A DNA stretch of 64,000 bases from Ignavibacteriota bacterium (GCA_963727845.1 CAVSHI010000003.1:787764-851763), one strand, 5' to 3'. Positions 6,118 to 61,723 are shown, numbered from the stretch's first letter. The notes: generated by a model from the sequence alone, not told the origin. Numbers and translations are program-made.

Positions 6118-6189
6118 CGGCCTTTGGAATTCATTTGTAATATCAATCGGTCGACATGTTGCTGAGTGAGGACACCAGCCTTCCCCGAT

Positions 6190-6984
6190 CTACCTTGAGC
6201 TGAAGCACGAGATACCCATCACCGGCTCAAGGCGTACGAGTTTTTCATCTCCCGGATAATATACGCGTTCGAGGAATAATCCGGACGGCGGGGCCGTCAG
6301 TTTGGCGGGGGCATCCGATCTGACGTTCAGGAATCTTTCGACTTCCTGAACAGGTAGTTTTCCGCGACCGACCTCGGCGAGAACGCCAACCACCTGACGG
6401 ACCATCTTCCACAGGAAATGGGATCCTTCGATACGCAACAGAATCAGCTCGTCCGCCTCCTTCAGCGTCAACCCTTCGATGAGCACCTTTGTCGATTTCT
6501 CCTCGGGGTCGTCGGCAGTGAATGACTGGGCGTTTTTCATTCCGACAAAGAGCTTCGCGGCATCTCTCATCCTGTTGATGTCCAGAATATCCTTGATCCA
6601 CCACACGTACCTTTTTCCAAAAGCAGTTCGCCTCCGCGAGATCTGGTAGAGATAGCTTCGCGATACCGCATCGTGCCGTGCGTGGAAGTTCCGGTGAGTT
6701 TTTTCTACTTCAAGGATGTTGATATCCGCCGGCAGGAGGTCATTGATCTTCATCCTGATGATTTCGGGGGCAAGGACCGTTTTCACATCGAGGTGGGCGA
6801 CCTGGCGGAGTGCATGAACACCGGCATCGGTCCTGCCGGCGCCGTAGAATTCAAGATCGCTTGTGTCGAACACTTCCCGCGCCGCATCCAATAGCTCTCC
6901 CTGGATGGTGCGGGCATTCTGTTGGACCTGCCATCCGCTGTAGCGCGTTCCTTCGTACTCGAGATAGATCTTAAACCGTGGCAT
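6190..6984 (-). CDS. truA: tRNA pseudouridine(38-40) synthase
   Basis: 264 aa; MPRFKIYLEYEGTRYSGWQVQ...FYGAGRTDAGVHALRQVAHLDV carries the catalytic Asp motif of TruA. Confidence 0.9.
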   Translation of the reverse strand: MPRFKIYLEYEGTRYSGWQVQQNARTIQGELLDAAREVFDTSDLEFYGAGRTDAGVHALRQVAHLDVKTVLAPEIIRMKINDLLPADINILEVEKTHRNFHARHDAVSRSYLYQISRRRTAFGKRYVWWIKDILDINRMRDAAKLFVGMKNAQSFTADDPEEKSTKVLIEGLTLKEADELILLRIEGSHFLWKMVRQVVGVLAEVGRGKLPVQEVERFLNVRSDAPAKLTAPPSGLFLERVYYPGDEKLVRLEPVMGISCFSSR

Positions 6985-7022
6985 TGTAATTATTCTTCAC
7001 TTGTGCGGGACTATTCATTCTT

Positions 7023-7226
7023 AGGCCATAACGAATTCCCCTCCTCCGGAGGGGACAAAGGGGTGGGTTGCTAAGGCACTTCGATTTGTAAATCGCACCC
7101 TGCGGACTCCTTCTCATTTACAGCAGTCACACACCCCTAAATCCCCTCTCAAGGGGGGACTTACTGGTTCCATTCACATGCCATTACAAATTCCCCTCCT
7201 CCGGAGGGGATACAGGGGTGGGTACA
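7023..7226. repeat. left arm of composite palindromic repeat cassette (U1-X-U1') flanking the DUF559 gene
   Basis: U1 = ccat[a/t]ac[g/a]aattCCCCTCCTCCGGAGGGGa[c/t]a[a/c]aGGGGTGGG, a 7-bp stem hairpin plus G-tracts. X = ~90 bp ending cagcagtcacacacccctaaatcccctctcaaggggggacttactggtt. Both recur 3' of the gene. Confidence 0.6.
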
Positions 7227-7585
7227 TTTTCATCAATCCAATCTTCAATGGCCATTACAACACCACGCAGATTGCTCTTCACATCAAGATCGTTGAATCT
7301 CAGAAATTCAACTCCTAACGATCGTAACCGTTTCTCTCGCTCCTTGTCGTGTTCCGTTTTTGCATCATGACTGCAGCCATCGACCTCAATGGCAAGGGAT
7401 AAGTCGCTGCAGAAGAAATCGACGATATAGTTATCAATCGGTTTCTGGCGATGGAAATCGTGCCCTCTCATCTTCTTCCCTTTCAGTTCTTTCCACAGTA
7501 TAATTTCAGCAAGCGTACTGTTGTTTCGCAAACTTTGAGCGAGTTGTTTCAACGCCGGATTGTATGGTATTATTTTCCTTCTCAC
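7184..7585 (-). CDS. DUF559 domain endonuclease-like protein (Vsr/restriction-endonuclease-like fold)
   Basis: LRNNSTLAEIILWKELKGKKMRGHDFHRQKPIDNYIVDFFCSDLSLAIEVDGCSHD is the conserved DUF559 core. The ORF extends to 7651, but its first ~22 codons are read through repeat unit U1, so the GTG at 7585 is the more likely start. Confidence 0.7.
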   Translation of the reverse strand: MRRKIIPYNPALKQLAQSLRNNSTLAEIILWKELKGKKMRGHDFHRQKPIDNYIVDFFCSDLSLAIEVDGCSHDAKTEHDKEREKRLRSLGVEFLRFNDLDVKSNLRGVVMAIEDWIDENVPTPVSPPEEGNL

Positions 7586-7624
7586 CAAATGATCCTCCCG
7601 AGAACACGCCCCTAAATAGCCACA

Positions 7625-7812
7625 ACAAATTCCCCTCCTCGGAGGGGACAAAGGGGTGGGTTGCTAAGCCATAACGAATTCCCCTCCTCCGGAGGGGATA
7701 AAGGGGTGGGTTCTCATTGCACTTTGGTTATTGAGCCGCACCCCAAGAACTCCTTTTCATTTACAGCAGTCACACACCCCTAAATCCCCTCTCAAGAGGG
7801 GACTTACTGGTT
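7625..7812. repeat. right arm of composite repeat cassette (U1-U1-X) flanking the DUF559 gene
   Basis: Two tandem U1 copies (7625-7668, 7669-7719) and a second X copy (7719-7812) about 90% identical to the left X (7075-7168). The cassette ends 7 bp before the pdxJ stop. Confidence 0.6.
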
Positions 7813-9561: not shown

Positions 9562-10173
9562 CTATTCTGAAAATCGCGCCTTCAGAAGTTCCGCGATCAA
9601 CCCATCTCTGTTTGCCCGGGAAATTTCGCGGCCGACAATAGAGAGACCCTTCACTCCTCTCGCAAAACGACGCAGCGCGTGTACCGTCATTGCCTCAAGC
9701 TGGCGGCGATACTCCTGCGCATCGTCGCTCATCGCAATCTCCGGCGGCGGTTCGACCGGGGCGGAAATCTCCGGGAGTTTTTCCTCCTGATGACCTTCCG
9801 CGACAGCATGTTCGGCGACTTTTTCTTTCGGGGGTCTGCCGGATTTCCTTTTCACCGGCGGCGCCGTTTCTTTGGGCACACGTTCACTCGCTTTTTTCGC
9901 CGGGGGATAGATAAGAATCTCCGTTTCGTCATCGGGGCGTGGAATGACATGTGAAGAAACGAGCTCCCCGACACGTTGTGCGGCAGCAGCGCCGGCATCG
10001 ACGGCGGCGCGGACAGCGGCAACATCACCTCTGACCATCACGGTGATCAAGCCGGATCCGGCGCGCTCTTTGCCGATGAGCTCGACATCCGCAGCTTTGA
10101 CCATCGCATCGGCTGCCTCGATGGCGGCAACAAGCCCCCGCGTCTCAATTAACCCAAGTGCATACTCAAGCAT
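9562..10173 (-). CDS. bacterial microcompartment shell protein BMC-H (Pfam00936) with ~110-aa C-terminal extension (AT-hook-like linker + Rho_N/SAP-like domain)
   Basis: Residues 1-90 read [29 protein letters not shown]...[38 protein letters not shown], the canonical BMC-H fold. A P/K/E-rich linker follows with [11 protein letters not shown] (GRP AT-hook core), then [40 protein letters not shown], which resembles the Rho termination factor N-terminal helical domain. Confidence 0.8.
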
Positions 10174-10545: not shown

Positions 10546-10882
10546 GTAGATTTACTCCTTTCAAAGAAAGATTATGGAAATTCTTTTCAAATAAACGTGA
10601 TTCGAATATACTGAAACGGGAGCATAATGTCAATCAACATTGGAAATTCCGGCGAAACCGGCCCATTTTCTCTTATTTTTTGTGCTCCCGAAAGGCCTGG
10701 GATTTTCTTCTTGACCGGTCTGGATCTGGACCTCCAAATCCTGCTGTAGATCCAGGGATTTAACCGGACTTGCCCGTCCGTCTGTCGTAATTTCATTCCT
10801 GGCGTTTCAGAGCCTTTAGGGCATGTTGGCATTGAGATTGATGGATGGTTTTACGATATTCCGAATAGAGTAAGAACGAGGA

Positions 10883-12220
10883 ATGAAACACGTACTGAGC
10901 ACAACAGTCCTACTGACCATCCTGCTTGGCATTTCGTGCCACAAGGATAATGGGCCCTGCCTTACCTGTCCGCCGCCATATACGCAGAGTATCCTTCTCG
11001 ATACCCTGAGCATTGAGCCGGCTGCCGTTGTTTTCCAGGTAAGCACGAGGGATTCGACGCACTTGGGTGTTGTTCAAATATATCGCGATAGCGTTTCAGT
11101 GTTCTCCAAAACGATTCTGAGCATTGACACGACGATAATTGACACGGCGCTTCTTCCAGCGCACCACTATCGGTACAAAGCATATCGAATCACGGGCAGC
11201 ACTCCAACTGACTCCAGCGCCGCGATCGTTCTCACTACGATGGACACTACAAGCCACAACTTCACGTGGGAGATTGATACACTGGGGGATGGCGCATCCA
11301 GTCATCTGTCGGATGTTGCTATTGTGAATGATACCTGCGTGTGGGTAGTGGGAGAAATTAACGTCCACGATTCTGTCGGTGGATGGAAGAATCCGCCGTA
11401 TAACATTGCCCGATGGGACGGTCATAGTTGGCAGCTATACACACTGAACTTTACTTATGATTATGGGACAGGGTACGCTCAAGCCGTGGCGGTGTATGCT
11501 TTCGGGCCGACAGACGTTCTCGTAAGTGCCGGTGCGAGCGTAATGCATTGGAATGGACAACACTGGACGAATCTTGATTACTTATACCATTCACAAGGTA
11601 ATATTCTGATCGGAAGCGTGTACAGGATGTGGGGGACATCAGTGAACGATTTGTACGGTGTTGGGTTGCAAGGGAGTATCGTGCACTGGGATGGTACGAG
11701 TTGGCAAACCATTGCAAGTGGCACGACACTTGATATACAAGATGTCTGGGGGTCCCGTAACCAGAAGACTGGTGAGTGGGAAATCCTGGCAGTGGCATCC
11801 GATAATGAGCTAAACGAGGGAAACAAAGTTCTAAAGATCAACAGCAATGGTGCTATGGCAATCCCGGATACTGGATTGCCCTGGAGTCTTACTGGAATCT
11901 GGTTTTCTTCAAGCCAGGCTTACTACATAGTCGGCGATGGTATCTTCTTTGAAAGATCCCTCAACCAACCATGGCGTTCTCTTCACCAAGGTCTAACAAC
12001 CTACTACACGGGTGCAGTTCAGGCTGCTAAGATAAATGATGTGGCCATTGTCGGGGCTTTTGGAGTTGTGTTGCATTATAATGGATCGACGTGGCGAAAT
12101 TATCAAAGCGAGACCGGCCTCACATCTGGATCCTGGACTGCTGTCAGGATAGAGGAGAATTTGCTGATTGCCGTTGGTGAAAATCTTGATAAAGCAGTAA
12201 TACTTATTGGCAGACGATAA
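10883..12220 (+). CDS. lipoprotein with beta-propeller-like W-x-G-x-x-W repeats
   Basis: Signal peptide plus lipobox (LLGISC). There are at least five repeats of the type ARWDGHSWQLY / MHWNGQHWTNL / VHWDGTSWQTI / LHYNGSTWRNY (BNR/Ycf48-like propeller blades). Confidence 0.6.
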   Translation: MKHVLSTTVLLTILLGISCHKDNGPCLTCPPPYTQSILLDTLSIEPAAVVFQVSTRDSTHLGVVQIYRDSVSVFSKTILSIDTTIIDTALLPAHHYRYKAYRITGSTPTDSSAAIVLTTMDTTSHNFTWEIDTLGDGASSHLSDVAIVNDTCVWVVGEINVHDSVGGWKNPPYNIARWDGHSWQLYTLNFTYDYGTGYAQAVAVYAFGPTDVLVSAGASVMHWNGQHWTNLDYLYHSQGNILIGSVYRMWGTSVNDLYGVGLQGSIVHWDGTSWQTIASGTTLDIQDVWGSRNQKTGEWEILAVASDNELNEGNKVLKINSNGAMAIPDTGLPWSLTGIWFSSSQAYYIVGDGIFFERSLNQPWRSLHQGLTTYYTGAVQAAKINDVAIVGAFGVVLHYNGSTWRNYQSETGLTSGSWTAVRIEENLLIAVGENLDKAVILIGRR

Positions 12221-12239: not shown

Positions 12240-12396
12240 GTCTGAACCGCTGATGCTCATGATGGAATGATGAGTATGATAAAAAAAGAGAAGAGACGCC
12301 GAACGATTCTTGGATTATGTTTACATCACAACGCCTGAAGTTGCCATCATGATCATCATTGTATCAGATTTATCAGCGGTTCAGACAATGGGACGG
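12240..12396. repeat. MITE-like element: 15-bp perfect terminal inverted repeats (gtctgaaccgctgat / atcagcggttcagac) enclosing 127 bp with a nested inner inverted repeat
   Basis: The outer IR was verified base by base. The inner part contains ctcatgatgg...ccatcatgat and an A7 run. It lies in the 355-bp gap between the lipoprotein gene and asmA. Confidence 0.5.
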
Positions 12397-22584: not shown

Positions 22585-23589
22585 CTAGATCATGTATTCA
22601 ATTATTTTTGTCTTTGGATCGAAAGGCTCAAGCTGACTGAGCCCGAGACGTTCAATCGCTGTATGAATTAGTTGTTCCTCACTCGTCGATGCGGCCGGGC
22701 TGCCGGCATAGAAGGTCCCTGCAAGCAACAGCGCTTCCTTGGGAATCAATCCCACCACCTCGCTTCCCGTCACATCGACCCCGAGGTTCTGCGCTTCCTT
22801 TCTCACTTCCTCATACGCACGGTGCGGCGGCGTAATGTCGTAATTCGTGAGATTGATGGAAACCTGGGCAATCTTGAAACGTTCGAGAAAAACTCCCATC
22901 GCTTTGACGGATTTCAAGGAACCGGGAATCTTTGTCGAATTTCCACTCGCATTCTTCACCGTTCTCCCGCTCTCACGGATCCGCACGGCGATTTCCTGGG
23001 CGATCTCCTTCTTGTCGGTTTTGAGATTGACATTGTAGGCAATCAGAAAACACCGCGCTCCAGTCACGGTTGCCCCGGATTTCTCGTTGAGAACGGGTTC
23101 TCCGTAGTCCGGCCGCCATGCAGAATCCTTGAGTTTATCCCGGAGTGCTTCATACTCGCCTTTTCTGACATTGGCAAGATTCCTTCTCTCGGGCATGCGC
23201 GCCGCTTCCTCGTAGAGATAAACGGGGATATGAAGCTCTTCGGCCACGCGCTTGCCGTATTCGTTGGAAAGCCGTACACAATCGGCCATAGTGACTCCGG
23301 AAACCGGCACGAACGGGACGACATCCGCTGCACCGATCCGCGGATGCTGGCCCTCGTGATGCCGCATATCGATCATATCTGCGGCAGTCTTTGTCGCCTG
23401 AAACGCGGCCTCTTTCACGGCCTCTGGCTCACCAACGAACGTCACGACACAACGGTTGTAATCCTTGTCCGGCTCAACGCCGAGGAGTTTCACCCCGCGC
23501 ACCCGACGGATGCTGTCGCCAATCGCTTTGATGGTGCGTTCATTCCGCCCCTCGCTAAAATTCGGGACACATTCCACAATTGGTTTCAT
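22585..23589 (-). CDS. ftcD: glutamate formimidoyltransferase
   Basis: MKPIVECVPNFSEGRN...RCVVTF..., the formiminotransferase N- and C-subdomains, is collinear with FtcD N-terminal-domain proteins. Confidence 0.85.
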   Translation of the reverse strand: MKPIVECVPNFSEGRNERTIKAIGDSIRRVRGVKLLGVEPDKDYNRCVVTFVGEPEAVKEAAFQATKTAADMIDMRHHEGQHPRIGAADVVPFVPVSGVTMADCVRLSNEYGKRVAEELHIPVYLYEEAARMPERRNLANVRKGEYEALRDKLKDSAWRPDYGEPVLNEKSGATVTGARCFLIAYNVNLKTDKKEIAQEIAVRIRESGRTVKNASGNSTKIPGSLKSVKAMGVFLERFKIAQVSINLTNYDITPPHRAYEEVRKEAQNLGVDVTGSEVVGLIPKEALLLAGTFYAGSPAASTSEEQLIHTAIERLGLSQLEPFDPKTKIIEYMI

Positions 23590-26373: not shown

Positions 26374-27516
26374 TCATTCGGCTGCGATGATGTTTCCGAT
26401 GGCGCGACTGAACCGTGGCAGGTTGCTATCCTCATCGGACAATTTCAAATATTTCCTGAAGAAATCAACTGGCCCCCGGACAATGGTTTCAACGAGTGCG
26501 GTTCTCCCCATCCTGAGGTCGATTTCTCTCGCCATGACCATGCCGGCCATTGCTCCGTAATTATCCCGGTATCCGCTCAGGTTGGCCGTTCGAATAAGTT
26601 CCGATGCCCGTGATGGGGAAAGGTTGTCAGAGAGCAGTTCCGTCGCATTCGCGTTGAACGTCGAAAAGACCTCCCTCGTTCTATTGTACCAGTCTCTGGG
26701 CAGGTTCCCATGTCCGAGTTGGTCGAGAGAAAGATAGTAGGCGATGCCTTCATTCTGCGTCAGATCGATTAACTCATGGAACGGCCTGTTGTGTGTCGCA
26801 TAGTAACGCTTCCACGCTGACGAATTTTCTTTGTAGGCACCGAAGGCAGCGTGAAACACCTCGTGCGCCGTTACGCCCAGAAGGGAAACGAAACGTTCAT
26901 TGAGCGTCTGGCCATAATTGACAGCGTGGGCAAGATTGATGACGATGGTCAACTCACCCTCCCCACCGCCGACAAATTGGGGCACATCTCCGTGCCAGAT
27001 GATCCGGCGGACATACGCATCGACGTTTTCGTGGCCGAACCCAACGACGTAGACCGGGATAGTCAAAGAAATATCCGCATCCTGCGGGAAGATCTGCTCG
27101 ACAGTAGCAACAACTCTGCGATTAAAGTTTTGCTTCTTCATTTCCCCGAGAAGCTCCTTGATGCTCACGATGTTCTTCCGCGCTTCTTCAAGATGATAGA
27201 TGTTGTCCCGCATGAAGTCGTGGTATCTCAGCGAATCGAGGGATGATTGGAGCCGCGCGGTTACGGAACCGCTGTTTGCGATTAATCCCGTTGTCGACGC
27301 GGCGACTAGGCTGCCGCGCAGGCCTGCCAATTCCTGTGTGCTCACGAAGCGATCTTCGTAGAGTTCGACACACTGTTCAGCGACATCAAAATTCAATCGC
27401 AAGTCGACATTGAACTTTGGGTTGGTTTGGGCCATAGCAATGGGCCCAACCATGTGCCCCAACAGAATAAGCAAAGCAAGCAGACAAAGAGCCAAATTCA
27501 TTGGGGGATAAATCAT
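26374..27516 (-). CDS. secreted putative zinc metalloprotease (HExxH)
   Basis: Signal peptide (MNLALCLLALLILLGHMVGPIAMAQ) and a single HEVFH motif (LGVTAHEVFHAAFGAY). The N-terminal about 55 codons of the maximal ORF are read through REP hairpins and are not coding. Confidence 0.6.
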   Translation of the reverse strand: MIYPPMNLALCLLALLILLGHMVGPIAMAQTNPKFNVDLRLNFDVAEQCVELYEDRFVSTQELAGLRGSLVAASTTGLIANSGSVTARLQSSLDSLRYHDFMRDNIYHLEEARKNIVSIKELLGEMKKQNFNRRVVATVEQIFPQDADISLTIPVYVVGFGHENVDAYVRRIIWHGDVPQFVGGGEGELTIVINLAHAVNYGQTLNERFVSLLGVTAHEVFHAAFGAYKENSSAWKRYYATHNRPFHELIDLTQNEGIAYYLSLDQLGHGNLPRDWYNRTREVFSTFNANATELLSDNLSPSRASELIRTANLSGYRDNYGAMAGMVMAREIDLRMGRTALVETIVRGPVDFFRKYLKLSDEDSNLPRFSRAIGNIIAAE

Positions 27517-27547
27517 TCTGCAAGTTGCCAGTGACATGAAGTCTGAG

Positions 27548-27700
27548 TCGTTTCCCTCAACTTTTAGCCTGTGAACAAACGCAGCGGCGTCTCTCGAATT
27601 GAAAACCGGATTGTGTCCCACGAGCTTTAGCTCGTGGACGAAGGCGACGCCATGTCTCGCACGGAATTTTGAATCGCACTTCACGAGTCACCTGTATCCT
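27548..27700. repeat. REP hairpin cluster 3' of the RAYT gene (1.5-2 degenerate units)
   Basis: Contains cccacgagctttagctcgtgg (9-bp stem) and ctctcgaattgaa..., homologous to the units at 28360-28486. Confidence 0.6.
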
Positions 27701-28344
27701 TCTTTTACATAGCTCCATTTCCACTCTTCGGGCGTACTCGTTATCCCTGCAACGACGGAATTGTACAACACGTAATCAATAATTCGTCTCAATTCCTGGC
27801 CGCAACGCACGACATGGTCGTAACTTTCATGGTGCCAGAAGCTTCCACTCCTGTCAAGCAACTGATTTGCCCGACGTGAGGTGCGTCCCTTCAGGAGTCG
27901 CAAGATGCGCGTCAACCTGAATCGATTGTTCTGGGTATTGCCCTGCGGTTCAGACGTTGGCTCAAACCCGCGCAGATCAATCACCATGTGGACATGATTT
28001 GGCATAATGGTATAAGCTATCAAACTATAGAGTTTATCATCCATGTCGTGCATCTCCTTTGCAACCAATCCCGCTACTGCAGGATCGTTCAACCAATGCG
28101 GACCGTTCTTAGCCTTCTCCAGGAACGCAGTATATCCATCAACGTACTTCTTCGGCAACTCTCCCCGACACCGACCATGCATCCCGTTTATGAGAACTCT
28201 TCTCTTCTCCACCGGATCGTCGACCAATGCCTTGAGGACATTCTTCGGTAACGATTCCGCTAATCGGAATGTGACGAAGAAAACTGCTTCAGCCGGCTGA
28301 TAGTGCGGCAAATGCCGCCGATAATATGTGTTGTCCTCCCCCAT
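27688..28344 (-). CDS. IS200-like / REP-associated tyrosine transposase (Y1 HUH transposase, RAYT-type)
   Basis: YYRRHLPHYQ...FFVTFR, the HUH motif in AYTIMPNHVHMVI, GRTSRRANQLL, and the catalytic Tyr in SFWHHESYDHVVR. Start set at the ATG (MGEDNTYY) just outside the REP array. Confidence 0.8.
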   Translation of the reverse strand: MGEDNTYYRRHLPHYQPAEAVFFVTFRLAESLPKNVLKALVDDPVEKRRVLINGMHGRCRGELPKKYVDGYTAFLEKAKNGPHWLNDPAVAGLVAKEMHDMDDKLYSLIAYTIMPNHVHMVIDLRGFEPTSEPQGNTQNNRFRLTRILRLLKGRTSRRANQLLDRSGSFWHHESYDHVVRCGQELRRIIDYVLYNSVVAGITSTPEEWKWSYVKEGYR

Positions 28345-28359
28345 ATCGCAACCCTGTGT

Positions 28360-28486
28360 CACGAGCTTCATCTCGTGAACATGGCCAATTGCATCCTCTC
28401 GAACTGAAGTTCGAGACACATCTCACGAGCTTCATCTCGTGAACATGGCCAATCGCAACCCCTCGAACTGAAGTTCGAGACACATC
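28360..28486. repeat. tandem REP units (2 x 62 bp) 5' of the RAYT gene
   Basis: Each unit is cacgagcttcatctcgtg (6-bp stem) + aacatggccaat + ctcgaactgaagttcgag (7-bp stem) + acacatc. The two copies differ at about 5 positions. Confidence 0.75.
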
Positions 28487-28493
28487 CTTCGAG

Positions 28494-30170
28494 CTAAGAT
28501 TCGGGATGCATCGGGATTTTCACCCCGAACTTCTTGGCGTTTTCAATCGCCCGATCGTAACCTGCATCTGCATGCCGCACAATACCCATTCCGGGGTCGT
28601 AGGTTAACACCCGCTCCAGCCGTCGTTCGGCCTCTTTAGTCCCGTCGGCAACAACCACCATACCCGCGTGAATCGACATCCCGATGCCGACACCACCGCC
28701 ATGGTGTACGCTTACCCAACTGGCGCCGCCAACAGCGTTGAGCAGCGCGTTCAGTATGGGCCAATCGGCAATGGCGTCGCTTCCATCCTTCATCTTTTCC
28801 GTCTCGCGGTTCGGCGATGCAACCGAACCACAGTCGAGATGGTCTCTTCCAATAACAATCGGGGCTTTAATCTCACCGCGGGCGACGAAGCTATTGAAGA
28901 TTTTTCCCATCTTCGCCCGTTCGCCGTAACCGAGCCAGCATATGCGCGAGGGCAGACCCTGGAACTTCACTTGCTTCTGCGCCTTCTCAATCCATCGGCA
29001 GAGGGGCTTGTTCTCCGGAAATGTTTCGAGAATAGCACGATCGGTTCTGTAGATGTCTTCCGGATCTCCGGAGAGCGCCGCCCAACGGAATGGACCTTTC
29101 CCGTCGCAGAACAGGGGACGAATGTATTCGGGCACGAAGCCTGGGATCTCGAACGCGTTTTCCACGCCGCTCGCGAGCGCTTCGCCCCTGATATTGTTGC
29201 CGTAATCGAACGTCACAGCGCCGCGTTTCTTCAATTCAAGCATGGCCCGCACATGTTCGACAATGGAAGCTCTCGCCATGGCAATGTATTTCTCCGGTTT
29301 CATTTTTCGAAGCGCAAGCGCTTCATCATACGGAATACCGTGCGGGACGTAGCCGTTGAGAGTATCATGAGCCGAGGTCTGGTCGGTAAGAACGTCCGGT
29401 GTGATTCCCCGACGAACAAGCTCCGGTAAGACGTTGGCTGCATTCCCGAGAAGAGCAACTGACACCGGTTCTTTCTTCAATTGTCCATCGTTAATCCATT
29501 GAAGCGCTTCATCGAGGCTCTTCGTTGTCTTATCGACATACTTTGTATCCAATCGCTTTTCAATTCTCAGGGGATCCACTTCAACCGCGAGGCACGCCGC
29601 GCCGTTCATTGTGGCCGCGAGCGGCTGTGCGCCACCCATGCCTCCGAGGCCGGAAGTGAGTAAGAATCTTCCGGCGAGCGAACCATGGAAGTACTTTTCA
29701 CCCGCAGCCGCGAATGTCTCGTATGTTCCCTGCAAAATCCCCTGCGTGCCGATGTAGATCCAACTGCCCGCTGTCATCTGTCCGTACATCGTAAGGCCCA
29801 GCGCTTCGAGCCGCCGAAATTCATCCCATGTTGCCCAGTGGGGAACCAGCATTGCATTGGAGATGAGCACGCGCGGCGCATCGGGGTACGTCTTGAAAAC
29901 GCCCACGGGCTTTCCGGATTGGACGAGAAGAGTTTCATCGTTCCCAAGAGTTTTGAGAGTTCGGACGATGGCCTCGTAGCATTCCCAGTTGCGCGCTGCT
30001 TTTCCCGTGCCGCCGTATACTATAAGTTCATCCGGCTTTTCTGCGACTTCAGCATCAAGATTGTTCATCAACATCCGCATCGCCGCTTCCTGCAGCCAGC
30101 CTTTGCAACTGAGTTGGGTACCGTGTGGGGCTTTGATATTAGTGTGGTGGTCTGTCATTGTTTCTCCCAA
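28494..30170 (-). CDS. hutU: urocanate hydratase
   Basis: [45 protein letters not shown]...[12 protein letters not shown] matches the HutU N-terminus and NAD-binding region. Confidence 0.9.
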
Positions 30171-30237
30171 AGGTCATTGCGATGGCGCCGACCTGTCCGC
30201 CGTCTTTTGGGCGGAAGGCGCCAGAAGCAATCCGATG

Positions 30238-30525
30238 TTATAATTCATAGTACAAATCTCTCCAGTTCTTGTTCATTCGCTCCACGAGCTCAATCTTATC
30301 CTTCCGGGAACCGGCTTTGATTTGTTTCTCTCTCGCAATCGCATTATACGAGTCTCGAAAAACTTCGTAGTAAACCAATTTGGTTATATTGTAACGTTTT
30401 GTAAAACCATCAACCATTTTCTCTTTATGCTCAAATACTCTTTTCAGCAAATTACTCGTCACGCCGGTGTATAGGACACTATTATGCTTGTTGGTCATGA
30501 TATACACGTAGTACTGCTTGTCCAT
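30238..30525 (-). CDS. GIY-YIG nuclease superfamily protein (stand-alone, 95 aa)
   Basis: YYVYIMTNKHNSVLYTGVTSNLLKRVFEHK carries the GIY-YIG motifs plus the conserved Arg and Glu. Confidence 0.75.
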   Translation of the reverse strand: MDKQYYVYIMTNKHNSVLYTGVTSNLLKRVFEHKEKMVDGFTKRYNITKLVYYEVFRDSYNAIAREKQIKAGSRKDKIELVERMNKNWRDLYYEL

Positions 30526-30678
30526 AATCGTGCTCTCAACAGGCCGTCAGATTGTGAGCGCCTTCCGCCTACGCTTCGGCGGACAAGATGGCGCCATGGC
30601 GCGCCGCGCCACTTCGTCATCCACCTCCCGCCAAGAACATGGCGACCAAGTCGGTGGATTCCTCGCAATGACACTAGG

Positions 30679-51013: not shown

Positions 51014-51279
51014 TGCCTTTTCGGTTATGAAATTGAAGAGAAAAGTAAGGAATTAATACTGGAGAAACAACAGGCTGGGGAGGGAACTTCTCCCCCTTTT
51101 TTAAGGGGGAGAATACAAGAGGGGGTCAGGCGTGGACGAAACGGCGTCAAACTGAGACACTACAGGGTTTTCAACGCATGAAGCGGCGGATAGTGGAGGG
51201 AAGAGATCTTGTGTACGGAGTTGTGGCTCATTTTCGATTCTTGTCGCTGTTAGCCGTCGTTCACCTTTGTTGTCTGAAT

Positions 51280-51375
51280 CAGAATTCTCAGGATTTCAGA
51301 ATGAACAGAATGGATTCTACTCAAATTCTGGAAATCCTATAATTCTGTGAATTCTGATTCTGACTTTCCACTCAC
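51280..51375. repeat. array of at least 8 CAGAAT/ATTCTG hexamers in both orientations in the 480-bp upstream region of the membrane-protein gene
   Basis: ctgaatCAGAATtctcagga tttCAGAATgaaCAGAATgg ATTCTactcaaATTCTGgaaatcc taATTCTGtgaATTCTGATTCTGac; the local GC drop is marked. Confidence 0.4.
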
Positions 51376-60437: not shown

Positions 60438-61723
60438 TCTCCTTTCCGTGGGTCAGTTATTACTCCCGTCAGCGCCGAGGCCGCGGCGACTGCCGGAGAA
60501 CACAGATAAACCTCAGAGTTGGGATTTCCCATCCGTCCTTTGAAGTTCCGGTTGGTCGTTGAGAGAGCAACTTCACCATCCCCCAGCGCACCTTCGTGGA
60601 CACCGAGACACGGACCGCAACCAGGATTCATCACAACGGCGCCTGCCGACATGAAATCCAGGATGTATCCCAGATCAAGCGCCTGCCGGTAAATCTTCCC
60701 CGAGGCGGGAAAGATCAGCATGCGCGCGCTCTTTGCAATCCGTCTCCCCTTGATGATGCGTGCAGCAACGGCCAGATCATCCAGGCGGCCATTCGTGCAC
60801 GACCCGATGACGACCTGGTGAATTCTCTTGCCGGCAACCTCGTCGATCGACTTTACATTATCGACAGTGTGCGGGCATGCAATTTGGGGCGTGAGCTTTG
60901 ATACATCGATGGTGATCGTTTGGTCATAGGGTGCGTCGGGGTCGGGTTGAATCAACTCCAGCTTTTCCTTCACTCCCGCCTCTTCTCTTAGATAGCGTTC
61001 AGTTTCAGCGTCTGCCGGGACGATACCGGACGTCGCACCGGCTTCAACAGCCATGTTGCAGATGACGAGGCGACCCGATGTCGGCATGCTGCGAATGGTC
61101 TCGCCCTGAAACTCAATCACCTTGAAGTTCGCACCTTCGGCGGTCAATTTGCCGATGAGATGGAGGATGAGATCTTTGGGGCCGACAAAATCCGGAAATT
61201 TCCCGACGACGTTCACACGAATTGTGGCGGGAACCTCAACGTTCAGAACCGTTCCCAGCGCCCAGACGCTTGCCATCTCCGTCGCGCCAATACCGAAGGC
61301 GAAAGCGCCGAGCGCCCCATGGCTCGTGGTATGCGAATCCGTTCCTACAACCACAGAGCCGGGCCGCACATATCCATTTTCCGGAAGAATCTGATGGCAG
61401 ATGCCGCCGACGTCACCGCGGATGTCATGAAATTTCACGATGTCGTTGGCAGCGACAAACTCCCGGATCTTTTTCTGATTCGACGCGGTTTTGGGAGACT
61501 CCGCCGGAACGCGATGGTCAAAAATGATCGCAATTCTCGACGGATCCCAGACTTTCTGCCGGAGTCCAGTTTCCTTGTAGATCTCCATGAATTGATTCAT
61601 GACCAGAGCGCCATTTTCGTGCGACATGGCAAGGTCGACTTTCGGCTCCAGCACATCGCCCACTTTGACCGATCTCTGTCCGGTCGCCCTCGCCAGGATT
61701 TTTTCAACGACTGTCATTCCCAT
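60434..61723 (-). CDS. leuC: 3-isopropylmalate dehydratase large subunit (type 2)
   Basis: MGMTVVEKILARA...VDLAMSHENGA...IFDHRVP, with the aconitase-family Cys ligands (GSCTNGR, CGPCLG). Confidence 0.85.
   Translation of the reverse strand: MGMTVVEKILARATGQRSVKVGDVLEPKVDLAMSHENGALVMNQFMEIYKETGLRQKVWDPSRIAIIFDHRVPAESPKTASNQKKIREFVAANDIVKFHDIRGDVGGICHQILPENGYVRPGSVVVGTDSHTTSHGALGAFAFGIGATEMASVWALGTVLNVEVPATIRVNVVGKFPDFVGPKDLILHLIGKLTAEGANFKVIEFQGETIRSMPTSGRLVICNMAVEAGATSGIVPADAETERYLREEAGVKEKLELIQPDPDAPYDQTITIDVSKLTPQIACPHTVDNVKSIDEVAGKRIHQVVIGSCTNGRLDDLAVAARIIKGRRIAKSARMLIFPASGKIYRQALDLGYILDFMSAGAVVMNPGCGPCLGVHEGALGDGEVALSTTNRNFKGRMGNPNSEVYLCSPAVAAASALTGVITDPRKGD

What the first reader, a model, noticed from the sequence alone, without database searches (positions are those of the whole stretch)
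27548..28492. IS200-like/RAYT-type Y1 transposase flanked by REP hairpin arrays, inserted inside the hut cluster
The gene encodes a Y1 HUH transposase with all catalytic signatures (HVHMV, SYDHVVR) but lacks IS200 terminal structures. Instead it is bracketed by two tandem 62-bp double-hairpin units on its 5' side and 1.5-2 degenerate units on its 3' side, the classic RAYT + cognate REP/BIME arrangement. The maximal ORFs of this gene and of the neighbouring protease are artificially extended through the hairpins (IGHVHEMKLV peptides). The insertion, together with a secreted HExxH protease and a GNAT, separates hutU from hutI-DUF429-ftcD-cyclodeaminase.
Basis: partly seen in the sequence, partly recalled or inferred. 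Interest (0 to 1): 0.55.

Follow-up and report, generated by a model that had tools for sequence, protein, structure and literature searches.

The report
RAYT nuclease gene flanked by hairpin repeats
A single-copy, long-resident gene for a REP-associated tyrosine nuclease (RAYT) sits between hutU and a peptidase gene and has arrays of a 64-bp double-hairpin repeat on both sides; this is a known arrangement (a "REPtron"), seen here in an Ignavibacteria-like bacterium, and no scattered copies of the repeat were found in the sequence I could reach.

Summary
A 218-aa HUH/Y1 protein is encoded at 27688-28344 on the minus strand. Upstream are two tandem double-hairpin units (28351-28486) with a period of 64 bp, not 62. 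Downstream are two units (27610-27680 good, 27547-27607 degenerate). The protein is nearer to RAYT/TnpAREP than to IS200 transposases. The family profile hits PDB 4ER8 at E 4.7e-9 and IS200 TnpA at E 0.18 or worse. The predicted fold matches 4ER8 best. The top NCBIfam hit is REP_Tyr_transpos, but below its cutoff. Three related lineages (79-86% aa identity) carry the gene at the same hutU-RAYT-DUF5700 position. Its dS (0.58-0.84) is like that of its neighbours and dN/dS is about 0.12. It is therefore old, vertically inherited and under selection, not a recent IS insertion. Distant homologs at other loci are also flanked by GT[AG]-footed hairpin arrays, and in one genome these hairpins are scattered to other intergenic sites. 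The defining REP property, many scattered genomic copies, was not seen for this lineage. There are none in the other 63 kb of the window, no other reported match on a relative's 281-kb contig, and none in GTDB representatives. Verdict: a new member of a known kind, a low-copy or orphan REPtron of modest interest.

The parts
27688..28344 (-). RAYT/TnpAREP-like HUH-Y1 nuclease gene, 218 aa including the stop. HUH at residues 117-119, W170..H177..R180, and the putative catalytic Y191.
   Evidence: orthologs are all 218 aa; NCBIfam REP_Tyr_transpos 64.5 bits against IS200 19 bits; conserved motifs; profile against 4ER8, E 4.7e-9; model pLDDT 79; best fold match 4ER8
28415..28486 (-). Upstream REP-like doublet unit 1. 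Hairpin A is at 28461-28480 and hairpin B at 28423-28442.
   Evidence: covariance model R1 81.8 bits
28351..28414 (-). Upstream doublet unit 2, next to the RAYT gene. Hairpin A is at 28397-28416 and hairpin B at 28359-28378. Hairpin B ends 14 nt before the ATG.
   Evidence: R1 53.9 bits
27610..27680 (-). Downstream doublet unit 3. Hairpin A is degenerate. Hairpin B is intact (CCACGAGCTAAAGCTCGTGG, 27618-27637).
   Evidence: R1 68.8 bits
27547..27607 (-). Downstream doublet unit 4, with both hairpins degenerate, just upstream of the likely DUF5700 start (27537).
   Evidence: R1 18.2 bits, E 3e-4; sequence
28494..28515 (-). Remnant of a further hairpin A that overlaps the last codons and the stop codon of hutU (CCCGAATCTTAG). 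In relatives L001 and L004 this is an intact hairpin with the TAG stop in its loop.
   Evidence: R1 units L001 9924-9994 and L004 9861-9930 overlap the ends of hutU at 9942 and 9879
28494..30170 (-). hutU (urocanase), the upstream neighbour in the same orientation.
   Evidence: Pfam Urocanase_N/Urocanase/Urocanase_C
26374..27537 (-). DUF5700 putative secreted zinc peptidase (HEVFH), the downstream neighbour. The maximal ORF to 27684 runs through the hairpin units.
   Evidence: Pfam DUF5700 1.4e-25; ortholog lengths 380-387 aa

Best explanation
This is a REPtron. It consists of a domesticated, vertically inherited RAYT (REP-associated tyrosine transposase, TnpAREP) gene of class 2, flanked on both sides by arrays of its presumed DNA substrates. 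By its motifs it is most like Quentin subclass 2.4/2.7 (subclass 2.4 corresponds to Bertels group 4).

The substrate is a 64-bp doublet of two related hairpins with 7-8-bp stems, each with a short TGT/GT[AG]-type foot.

Inferred mechanism, by homology with E. coli TnpAREP and IS608 TnpA: the HUH/Y1 enzyme binds the folded hairpin on single-stranded DNA, for example the lagging-strand template. It reads the foot nucleotides through the W..H..R region. It then cuts and rejoins the strand through a 5'-phosphotyrosine link to Y191.

In this lineage the visible outcome is local. The number of units in the arrays differs between orthologous loci: one, two or three upstream, and one or two downstream. 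A scattered REP population is either very small or absent.

Shown: homology, conserved catalytic residues, purifying selection, synteny, the hairpin arrays and their co-occurrence with RAYT homologs. Inferred: binding, cleavage, and any mobilisation.
For: 1. Protein class.
- NCBIfam REP_Tyr_transpos is the best family (64.5 bits, E 9e-18) against IS200 at 19 bits.
- A 49-sequence family profile hits E. coli TnpAREP 4ER8 at E 4.7e-9, and IS200-type TnpA (2EC2, 2F4F) only at E 0.18-0.54.
- The AlphaFold model (pLDDT 79) matches 4ER8 best (Foldseek E 7e-7); IS608/ISDra2 TnpA follow at E 4.5e-3 or worse.
- The family motifs NHVH / FW[HQ]HESYDHV[VI]R / Y[VI]LNNP fit class 2 (Y...NP) and not IS200 class 1 (Y[IV]ENQ) in Table 1 of PMC6006769.

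2. Domestication.
- Orthologs at 79-86% aa identity occupy the same hutU-RAYT-DUF5700-GNAT-...-hutI position in three other lineages.
- RAYT dS is 0.58-0.84 and dN/dS 0.12-0.13. Five neighbouring genes give dS 0.43-0.71 and dN/dS 0.06-0.13.
- There is no GC anomaly.

3. Hairpins.
- Eleven units from four lineages align. In the two stems, 89% of cells are paired, against 23-46% when the partner is slid. Compensatory changes include U-A to C-G at three pairs.

4. The hairpins go with the RAYT, not with the hut genes.
- Homologs at 41-45% identity sit at unrelated loci: Melioribacteraceae L146, Bacteroidota L147, Ignavibacteriales L148 and MAG L025.
- All are flanked by arrays of similar ACGA-type hairpins. 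The L146 and L148 hairpins carry a [TC]ACA/TGTA foot, and each lineage has its own sequence.
- In L146 the same hairpins also occur at two other intergenic sites within 16 kb. This clade can therefore own scattered REPs.
Against: - No scattered copy of the unit was found for this lineage. The covariance model with filters off finds only the four flanking units in 64 kb.
- The hairpin-B 18-mer scan returned a single stretch from the 281-kb contig of the P0003 lineage.
- The doublet scan of 185,579 GTDB representative genomes found only one distant MAG. Its gap range of 16-36 was too narrow for some variants.
- The protein scores below the curated cutoffs of both relevant HMMs: NCBIfam 64.5 against 80, and Pfam Y1_Tnp 21.6 against 23.
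- The foot is GT[GA]T or TGT rather than the canonical GT[AG]G.
- The window protein has YVLYNS where 94% of the family has ...NP.
- The relative orientation of hairpins A and B, direct or inverted, is ambiguous from sequence. By my hand alignment of the consensus, 19 of 27 positions match in direct orientation and 17 of 27 in inverted orientation.
- No biochemical evidence exists for this clade.
Confidence: 0.7

Rival explanations
1. Orphan or local-only REPtron. The RAYT is kept by selection, but its only substrates are the hairpin arrays next to it. The scattered REP population is extinct or never arose. The enzyme would then serve a local or host function, for example remodelling the hairpin array between hutU and the downstream genes, or some other single-stranded DNA task.
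For: There are no copies outside the flanks in 64 kb even with a sensitive model, and only one reported stretch on a relative's 281-kb contig. The gene is under purifying selection (dN/dS 0.12). The number of units varies between orthologous loci. Group 4 RAYTs have low flanking 16-mer frequencies, about 14 per replicon (PMC5581495).
Against: Only about 2-10% of a genome was sampled. A family of 10-30 copies would easily be missed. A homolog in Melioribacteraceae does have scattered copies. No positive evidence exists for any host function.
Confidence: 0.2
2. An autonomous IS200/IS605-family insertion sequence that landed in the hut cluster. The flanking hairpins would be its left-end and right-end recognition structures.
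For: The fold and chemistry are the same HUH/Y1 type. Similar hairpins lie in the same orientation on both sides, as at IS608 ends. Pfam's only hit is Y1_Tnp.
Against: The gene is syntenic in four lineages, with dS equal to that of its neighbours. There is no second copy in the window or the loci. Profile and fold both prefer TnpAREP over IS200 TnpA by several orders of magnitude. The Y motif is of class 2 type. The flanks are multi-unit arrays of variable length, not single ends. There is no tnpB gene.
Confidence: 0.04
3. The hairpins are ordinary operon elements, such as mRNA stabilisers, attenuators or terminators of the co-directional hutU...hutI cluster, and have no functional link to the RAYT.
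For: All genes from 33306 to 20388 are on the minus strand, so the hairpins would be transcribed. REPs are known to stabilise upstream mRNA (general knowledge).
Against: There is no T-run or terminator-like site at the arrays and no Rfam match. The same type of hairpin array flanks RAYT homologs at loci unrelated to hut. Such a role would not exclude their being REPs.
Confidence: 0.04

Closest known systems
REPtron of E. coli K-12 (tnpAREP/yafM flanked by BIME/REP; structure 4ER8; Ton-Hoang 2012 and Messing 2012, as cited in PMC6006769)
   Same: A single-copy HUH/Y1 gene with hairpin repeats on both sides. 4ER8 is the best structural and profile match. The W..H..R region that reads the REP foot in E. 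coli is conserved.
   Different: Sequence identity is only about 15%. The protein has about 45 extra residues between strand 1 and the HUH motif. The foot is GT[GA]T/TGT, not GTAG. E. coli has hundreds of scattered REPs; none was seen here outside the flanks.
TnpAY1 subclass 2.4 (Bertels RAYT group 4) and the small subclass 2.7 (Quentin et al. 2018, PMC6006769; Bertels et al. 2017, PMC5581495)
   Same: The motifs fit: NHVH, W[HQ], Y[VI]LNNP. Length is about 200-220 aa. The family occurs in the Bacteroidota/Chlorobi-type and Chloroflexi phyla. [quoted passage not shown] The abundance of flanking repeats is low.
   Different: Assignment rests on motifs and traits only. The authors' HMMs and trees were not available. 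The window protein itself has no internal hairpin and has S instead of P in the Y motif. The canonical GT[AG]G foot and the three G-C pairs at the stem base described for 2.4 are not present.
REPIN-RAYT systems of Pseudomonas and Enterobacteria (Bertels & Rainey 2011, PMC3116915)
   Same: A two-hairpin (doublet) repeat unit next to a vertically inherited single-copy RAYT.
   Different: REPINs occur tens to hundreds of times per genome and are clearly inverted doublets. Here scattering is not seen and the orientation is ambiguous. Those systems use group 2 and 3 RAYTs.
IS200/IS605 family (IS608, ISDra2 TnpA)
   Same: The HUH/Y1 fold and recognition of hairpins on single-stranded DNA.
   Different: The Y...Q motif, multi-copy occurrence, horizontal spread and defined left and right ends. 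None of these is found here.

Membership tests
RAYT / TnpAREP (class 2 TnpAY1) | HUH motif plus a single catalytic tyrosine in a Y...NP-type motif | tested here: met
   H117-V-H119 are invariant in the family alignment and Y191 is nearly invariant (99%). The family motif is Y[VI]LNNP; the window has YVLYNS.
RAYT / TnpAREP (class 2 TnpAY1) | Closer to TnpAREP than to IS200 TnpA in sequence and structure | tested here: met
   The profile hits 4ER8 at E 4.7e-9 against 2EC2 at E 0.18. Foldseek gives 4ER8 E 7e-7 against IS TnpA at E 4.5e-3 or worse. NCBIfam gives REP_Tyr_transpos 64.5 bits against IS200 19 bits.
RAYT / TnpAREP (class 2 TnpAY1) | Passes the curated HMM thresholds (NCBIfam NF047646, cutoff 80 bits; Pfam PF01797, gathering score 23) | tested here: not met
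   64.5 bits and 21.6 bits. The models are built mainly from proteobacterial RAYTs and from IS200. Many homologs do carry a precomputed PF01797 hit.
RAYT / TnpAREP (class 2 TnpAY1) | Gene flanked by palindromic repeats (REPtron arrangement) | tested here: met
   There are four units in the window. The same is seen in orthologs L001, L004, L007 and L106 and in distant homologs L025 and L146-L148.
RAYT / TnpAREP (class 2 TnpAY1) | Cognate REPs scattered in many copies in intergenic DNA of the same genome | tested here: inconclusive
   There are 0 copies in the other 63 kb of the window. A relative's 281-kb contig gave 1 stretch in a capped scan. Scattering is seen for a distant homolog (L146).
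RAYT / TnpAREP (class 2 TnpAY1) | Single copy and vertically inherited | tested here: met
   The position is syntenic in four lineages, with dS and dN/dS like the neighbours. There is one copy in the 64 kb. Genome-wide copy number was not testable.
RAYT / TnpAREP (class 2 TnpAY1) | 5' GT[AG]G tetranucleotide at the foot of the hairpin | tested here: inconclusive
   The foot 5' of hairpin A is GTGT, GTAT or GT[GA]AT. On the other strand, hairpin B has TGT followed by 1-2 nt. The GT[AG] core is kept but the fourth base is not G.
Subclass 2.4 / Bertels group 4 | [quoted passage not shown] | tested here: inconclusive
   The motifs fit the family consensus. Internal hairpins are seen in homologs L147 (10419-10436), L148 (10398-10413, 10479-10494) and L025 (about 6150-6205), but not in the window gene. 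No reference phylogeny was run.
IS200/IS605 insertion sequence | Several near-identical copies, a class 1 Y[IV]ENQ motif, defined left and right ends, often tnpB | tested here: not met
   There is no paralog in the window or the loci. The Y motif is of class 2. The flanks are arrays, not single ends. No tnpB gene is present.

The most novel reading that the evidence does not exclude
A RAYT kept under purifying selection for a long time (dS about 0.6-0.8) whose only genomic substrates are the hairpin arrays flanking its own gene. This would be a self-contained REPtron with no scattered REP/REPIN population. It would imply that the enzyme is kept for a host or local function, such as array remodelling within the hut gene cluster or other single-stranded DNA processing, and not for propagating repeats.
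Probability: 0.2. Interest if true: 0.5.

Novelty: new member of a known kind. Interest (0 to 1): 0.3.

Why it matters
REP/RAYT systems have been studied almost entirely in Proteobacteria. This is a clean example from an uncultured Ignavibacteria-like lineage. It has orthologous loci in four lineages, which allow array gain and loss to be followed. It also shows REP sequence forming the 3' end and stop codon of a housekeeping gene (hutU).

If a whole-genome scan confirmed that there are no scattered copies, it would bear on an open question: why are RAYTs of the REP-poor groups (Bertels groups 1, 4 and 5) maintained by selection? Otherwise it is an ordinary annotation point. The gene should be called a RAYT/TnpAREP-family protein of 218 aa, and the neighbouring ORFs should not be extended through the hairpins.

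Tried and rejected
- Exact look-ups of the window RAYT (218-aa and 243-aa forms) and of the 100%-identical SerRS (P0121, on a 1.29-Mb NCBI/ENA contig) found no retrievable contig. The rest of the source genome could therefore not be scanned.
- The GTDB genome scan with the doublet pattern (gap 16-36) returned one distant MAG only. In hindsight the gap range missed 15-nt spacers, and the window's own species appears not to be represented.
It was dominated by a different, widespread hairpin family (…CCACGAGCTAAAGCTCGTGGCAAT…) and by GC-rich coding matches (the HELKLV peptide). Only 1 of 120 stretches carried a RAYT.
- A protein search with the six-frame peptides of the repeat array, meant to catch ORFs mis-called through scattered REPs, found nothing. 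This result is uninformative.
- Rfam has no family at the locus or in the related repeat loci.
- Promoter and terminator consensus scans found nothing at the arrays.
- The viral-contig scan with the hairpin-A core gave 15 matching stretches; they were not examined further.
- I considered and rejected an in-frame REP insertion in the window's own RAYT. Model R1 gives only 5.5 bits inside the gene.
- I could not decide whether hairpins A and B are direct or inverted copies of each other.
Only its C-terminal part is confirmed by the 4ER8 alignments.

Full report
**What is there**

The region 27547-28515 holds one gene on the minus strand and repeat arrays on both sides of it. The maximal ORF (27688..28419, 243 aa, GTG start) is too long. 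The three closest homologs in public data are all 218 aa and start MGEDxTYYRRHLPHYQ, so the coding sequence is 27688..28344.

Upstream of the gene, Tandem Repeats Finder reports two copies of a 64-bp unit (28359-28486, 95% match). On the gene's coding strand each unit reads as follows:
- a GTGTC foot;
- hairpin A (TCGAAC-TTCA-GTTCGA, extendable to TCTCGAAC/GTTCGAGA);
- an 18-nt spacer;
- hairpin B (TCACGAG-ATGAAG-CTCGTGA).

Hairpin B of the second unit ends 14 nt before the ATG. As single-stranded DNA the units fold better than shuffled sequence (z about -3 per unit, -4.5 to -5.7 for the array).

I aligned 11 such units from four lineages and built a covariance model from them (R1). Run over the whole window with filters off, the model finds four units:
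- 28415-28486 (81.8 bits);
- 28351-28414 (53.9 bits);
- 27610-27680 (68.8 bits);
- 27547-27607 (18.2 bits, degenerate).

Nothing else is convincing. The next hits are 12-13 bits, and the two I checked (60625-60669 and 23538-23573) lie in coding-looking sequence.

Both the RAYT ORF and the DUF5700 ORF are artificially lengthened through the hairpins. The maximal DUF5700 ORF is 436 aa against 380-387 aa in most orthologs.

**What the protein is**

Pfam gives only a sub-threshold Y1_Tnp hit (21.6 bits against 23). NCBIfam puts REP_Tyr_transpos first (64.5 bits, E 9e-18, cutoff 80) and IS200 far behind (19 bits).

A profile of 49 family members hits the E. coli REP-associated transposase structure 4ER8 at E 4.7e-9. 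It hits IS200-type transposases only at E 0.18-0.54. An AlphaFold model built with that alignment (mean pLDDT 79, pTM 0.74) matches 4ER8 best (Foldseek E 7e-7). The IS608, ISDra2 and IS200 transposases come next at E 4.5e-3 or worse.

The family consensus has four conserved blocks:
- YYRRxLPH[YW]Q...FF[VI]TFRL at the N-terminus;
- MPNHVH;
- GxFW[HQ]HESYDHV[VI]R;
- Y[VI]LNNPVKAGL.

In the classification of Quentin et al. 2018 (PMC6006769), the Y...NP motif belongs to class 2 (TnpAREP-like) and not to IS200 class 1 (Y[IV]ENQ). The combination NHVH / WQ / YIxNNP fits subclass 2.4 (equal to Bertels group 4) or the small subclass 2.7.

That paper describes this region as the one reading the GTAG foot. 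The catalytic tyrosine is Y191.

The family is large. In a library of 1.84 billion representatives, 6384 clusters at 50% identity match at E 1e-3 or better, and 2203 at 1e-10 or better.

**How it behaves in evolution**

The three closest homologs are P0001 (86%), P0002 (84%) and P0003 (79%). All lie between hutU and the DUF5700 peptidase gene, followed by GNAT, hutI, DUF429, FTCD and FTCD_C, as in the window.

Nei-Gojobori estimates against the window give dS 0.58-0.84 and dN/dS 0.12-0.13 for the RAYT. Five neighbouring genes give dS 0.43-0.71 and dN/dS 0.06-0.13. There is no compositional anomaly.

The gene has therefore been inherited vertically with its neighbours and is under purifying selection. 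This is the behaviour Bertels et al. 2017 (PMC5581495) describe for RAYTs, as opposed to insertion sequences. It also means that 'inserted inside the hut cluster' cannot be demonstrated, because no relative with an empty site was found.

SerRS from the window is 100% identical to a protein on a 1.29-Mb NCBI/ENA contig. Its nearest named relatives are Ignavibacteria/Ignavibacteriota MAGs at about 80%.

**The hairpins belong with the gene**

All orthologous loci carry the same doublet units on both sides of the RAYT and nowhere else in the 12-20 kb fetched. The number of units differs between lineages:
- upstream, there is one unit in L001/L106, two in L004 and in the window, and three in L007;
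- downstream, there is one unit in those relatives and two in the window.

Across the 11 aligned units, 89% of cells in the two stems are paired, against 23-46% when the partners are slid. Three pairs show changes on both sides (U-A to C-G, A-U to G-C). The sample is small and the sequences are related, so this is supportive rather than decisive.

More telling are homologs of only 41-45% identity that sit at unrelated loci:
- **L146 (Melioribacteraceae)** has arrays of CACGAAAC-TTC-GTTTCGTG+TTACA alternating with TGTAAG+TCGAAAT-GTA-ATTTCGA.
- **L148 (Ignavibacteriales)** has CACGAGATAAATCTCGTG+[AG][TG]TACA.
- **L147 (Bacteroidota)** has GAACGA[AG]AT..ATTTCGTTC.
- **L025 (the MAG from the GTDB scan)** has GTCGAACTTYAGTTCG + GACGAGATGAATCTCGTC.

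In every case the hairpin arrays flank the gene. The stem sequences differ between lineages, but the ACGA core recurs in all four. L146 and L148, like the window, also keep a short TGT[AG]-type foot.

[quoted passage not shown] Quentin et al. report this oddity as unique to subclass 2.4.

In L146 the same hairpins also occur at two other intergenic sites within 16 kb (106-523 and 10806-11037). This clade can therefore own scattered REPs.

**What is missing**

A REP family is defined by many scattered copies. For the window's lineage I found none, in three tests:
- Zero copies in the other 63 kb of the window with a sensitive model.
- One stretch only from the 281-kb contig Ga0209777_10000022 of the P0003 lineage in the metagenome scan for the hairpin-B core.
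- No hit in 185,579 GTDB representative genomes for the window-type doublet.

Taken together, about 345 kb without a copy suggests fewer than roughly 35 copies in a 4-Mb genome. This is my own estimate from a Poisson upper bound. It is compatible with the low repeat abundance reported for group 4 RAYTs, about 14 occurrences of the commonest flanking 16-mer. It is also compatible with no scattering at all.

The source genome exists in public data but could not be reached with the tools.

**Mechanism**

By homology with E. coli TnpAREP and IS608 TnpA (established knowledge, summarised in PMC6006769), the protein should act in three steps:
- It binds the folded hairpin on single-stranded DNA.
- It recognises the foot nucleotides.
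- It cleaves and religates through a phosphotyrosine intermediate at Y191, with H117 and H119 holding the metal.

The varying unit number at orthologous loci is what such activity would leave behind, though replication slippage on 64-bp tandem repeats could do the same. None of this was tested biochemically.

Whether hairpins A and B are inverted copies (REPIN-like) or direct copies is ambiguous from the window. I aligned the two consensus hairpins by hand:
- Aligned directly, they share the ATGT-TC 5' flank and the GGG 3' flank (19 of 27 positions).
- Aligned inverted, they share the TTCA loop and a TGT foot (17 of 27 positions).

In L146 a 5-nt TTACA/TGTAA foot favours the inverted arrangement.

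**Rivals**

- **An autonomous IS200/IS605 element** is essentially excluded by synteny, dS, lack of paralogs, the class 2 motifs and the array structure.
- **Operon hairpins unrelated to the RAYT** are excluded as the sole explanation. The arrays travel with RAYT homologs to unrelated loci. There is no terminator-like tail and no Rfam family.
- **An orphan REPtron**, a selected RAYT with only local substrates, is the one live alternative. I give it about 0.2.

**Verdict**

It is unproven on the genome-wide REP family and untestable on the 'insertion'. This is a new member of a known kind of system, in a poorly studied phylum. Interest is modest (0.3).

Noticed in passing
window 28494-28515; L001 9924-9947; L004 9861-9884; L007 958-1039: The last codons and the TAG stop of hutU lie inside a REP hairpin-A sequence (ccgaacttTAGttcgg in L001 and L004). 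In L007 the loop is TTCA, the stop is lost, and the called hutU ORF runs on about 19 codons through the array. The repeat therefore supplies the 3' end of a housekeeping gene.
   Followed up: partly
L026-L145 (metagenome stretches), e.g. L125 1-420, L141 9730-9815, L029 5700-5910, L072 1-340: The 18-nt core of hairpin B (CACGAGCTNAAGCTCGTG) occurs in more than 120 metagenome stretches. About 70% share a longer motif, tcCACGAGCT[AG]AAGCTCGTGGC[AT]AT, in AT-rich intergenic DNA. It is usually paired with other stem-T[AG]AA-stem hairpins (GGGCTAAAGCCC, GGGTTGAAACCC) and sometimes forms inverted doublets about 150 nt long. Only 1 of 120 stretches has a RAYT nearby. There was no Rfam match in the four such stretches I scanned. 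This looks like a very widespread REP/REPIN-like family of environmental bacteria, and its owner gene was not identified.
   Followed up: partly
window 7016-7812: A small minus-strand ORF (about 7184-7590) looks by eye like a DUF559/Vsr-type endonuclease (…DFFCSDLSLAIEVDGCSHD…LRSLGVEFLRF…). It is flanked by four copies of a 53-nt repeat with the hairpin CCCCTCCTCCGGAGGGG and by a 148-nt direct repeat (7022-7169 and 7665-7812, 86%). It appears to be a second 'small nuclease gene plus flanking hairpin repeats' module in the same window.
   Followed up: no
window 30179-30600; L001 7937-8281; L004 4517-8119: The 95-aa GIY-YIG gene (30238-30525, minus strand) is bracketed by 43-nt inverted repeats (30179-30221 and 30558-30600, 77% complementary), and the region has lower GC (0.45). 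The same M14-peptidase/hutU intergenic spot is empty in L001. In L004 it holds a cassette that looks like a diversity-generating retroelement (Peptidase_C14/FGE-sulfatase protein, bAvd, RVT_1). The site is a hot spot for small mobile modules.
   Followed up: no
window 12240-12386 and 51272-51364: Two inverted repeats with 40-41-nt arms that start GTCTGAA and end TTCAGAC, with spacers of 65 and 13 nt. They could be MITE-like elements.
   Followed up: no
L025 5845-6710 (JAMCQL010000017.1, Bacteroidetes MAG FK_Sedi_A_Bin.46): A RAYT homolog is flanked by A/B-type doublets and has a REP-like unit inside the reading frame (about 6150-6205). The N-terminal half seems to be in another frame or interrupted, so it may be a pseudogene.
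   Followed up: no
L146 106-523, 4758-4938, 5950-6048, 10806-11037 (Melioribacteraceae GCA_037481715.1): The hairpins that flank this RAYT homolog (CACGAAACTTCGTTTCGTG+TTACA and GTCGAAAT/GTCGAAAC types) recur at two other intergenic sites within 16 kb. This is a clear case of scattered REPs for this protein clade.
   Followed up: partly
one search hit list (e.g. P0251, P0255, P0264, P0267, P0278, P0280): Several family representatives match the query in two stretches that break just after the HUH motif (query residue about 123-125) and are 240-330 aa long. This is consistent with in-frame insertions, possibly REP-derived, at the position where Quentin et al. describe them for subclass 2.4.
   Followed up: no
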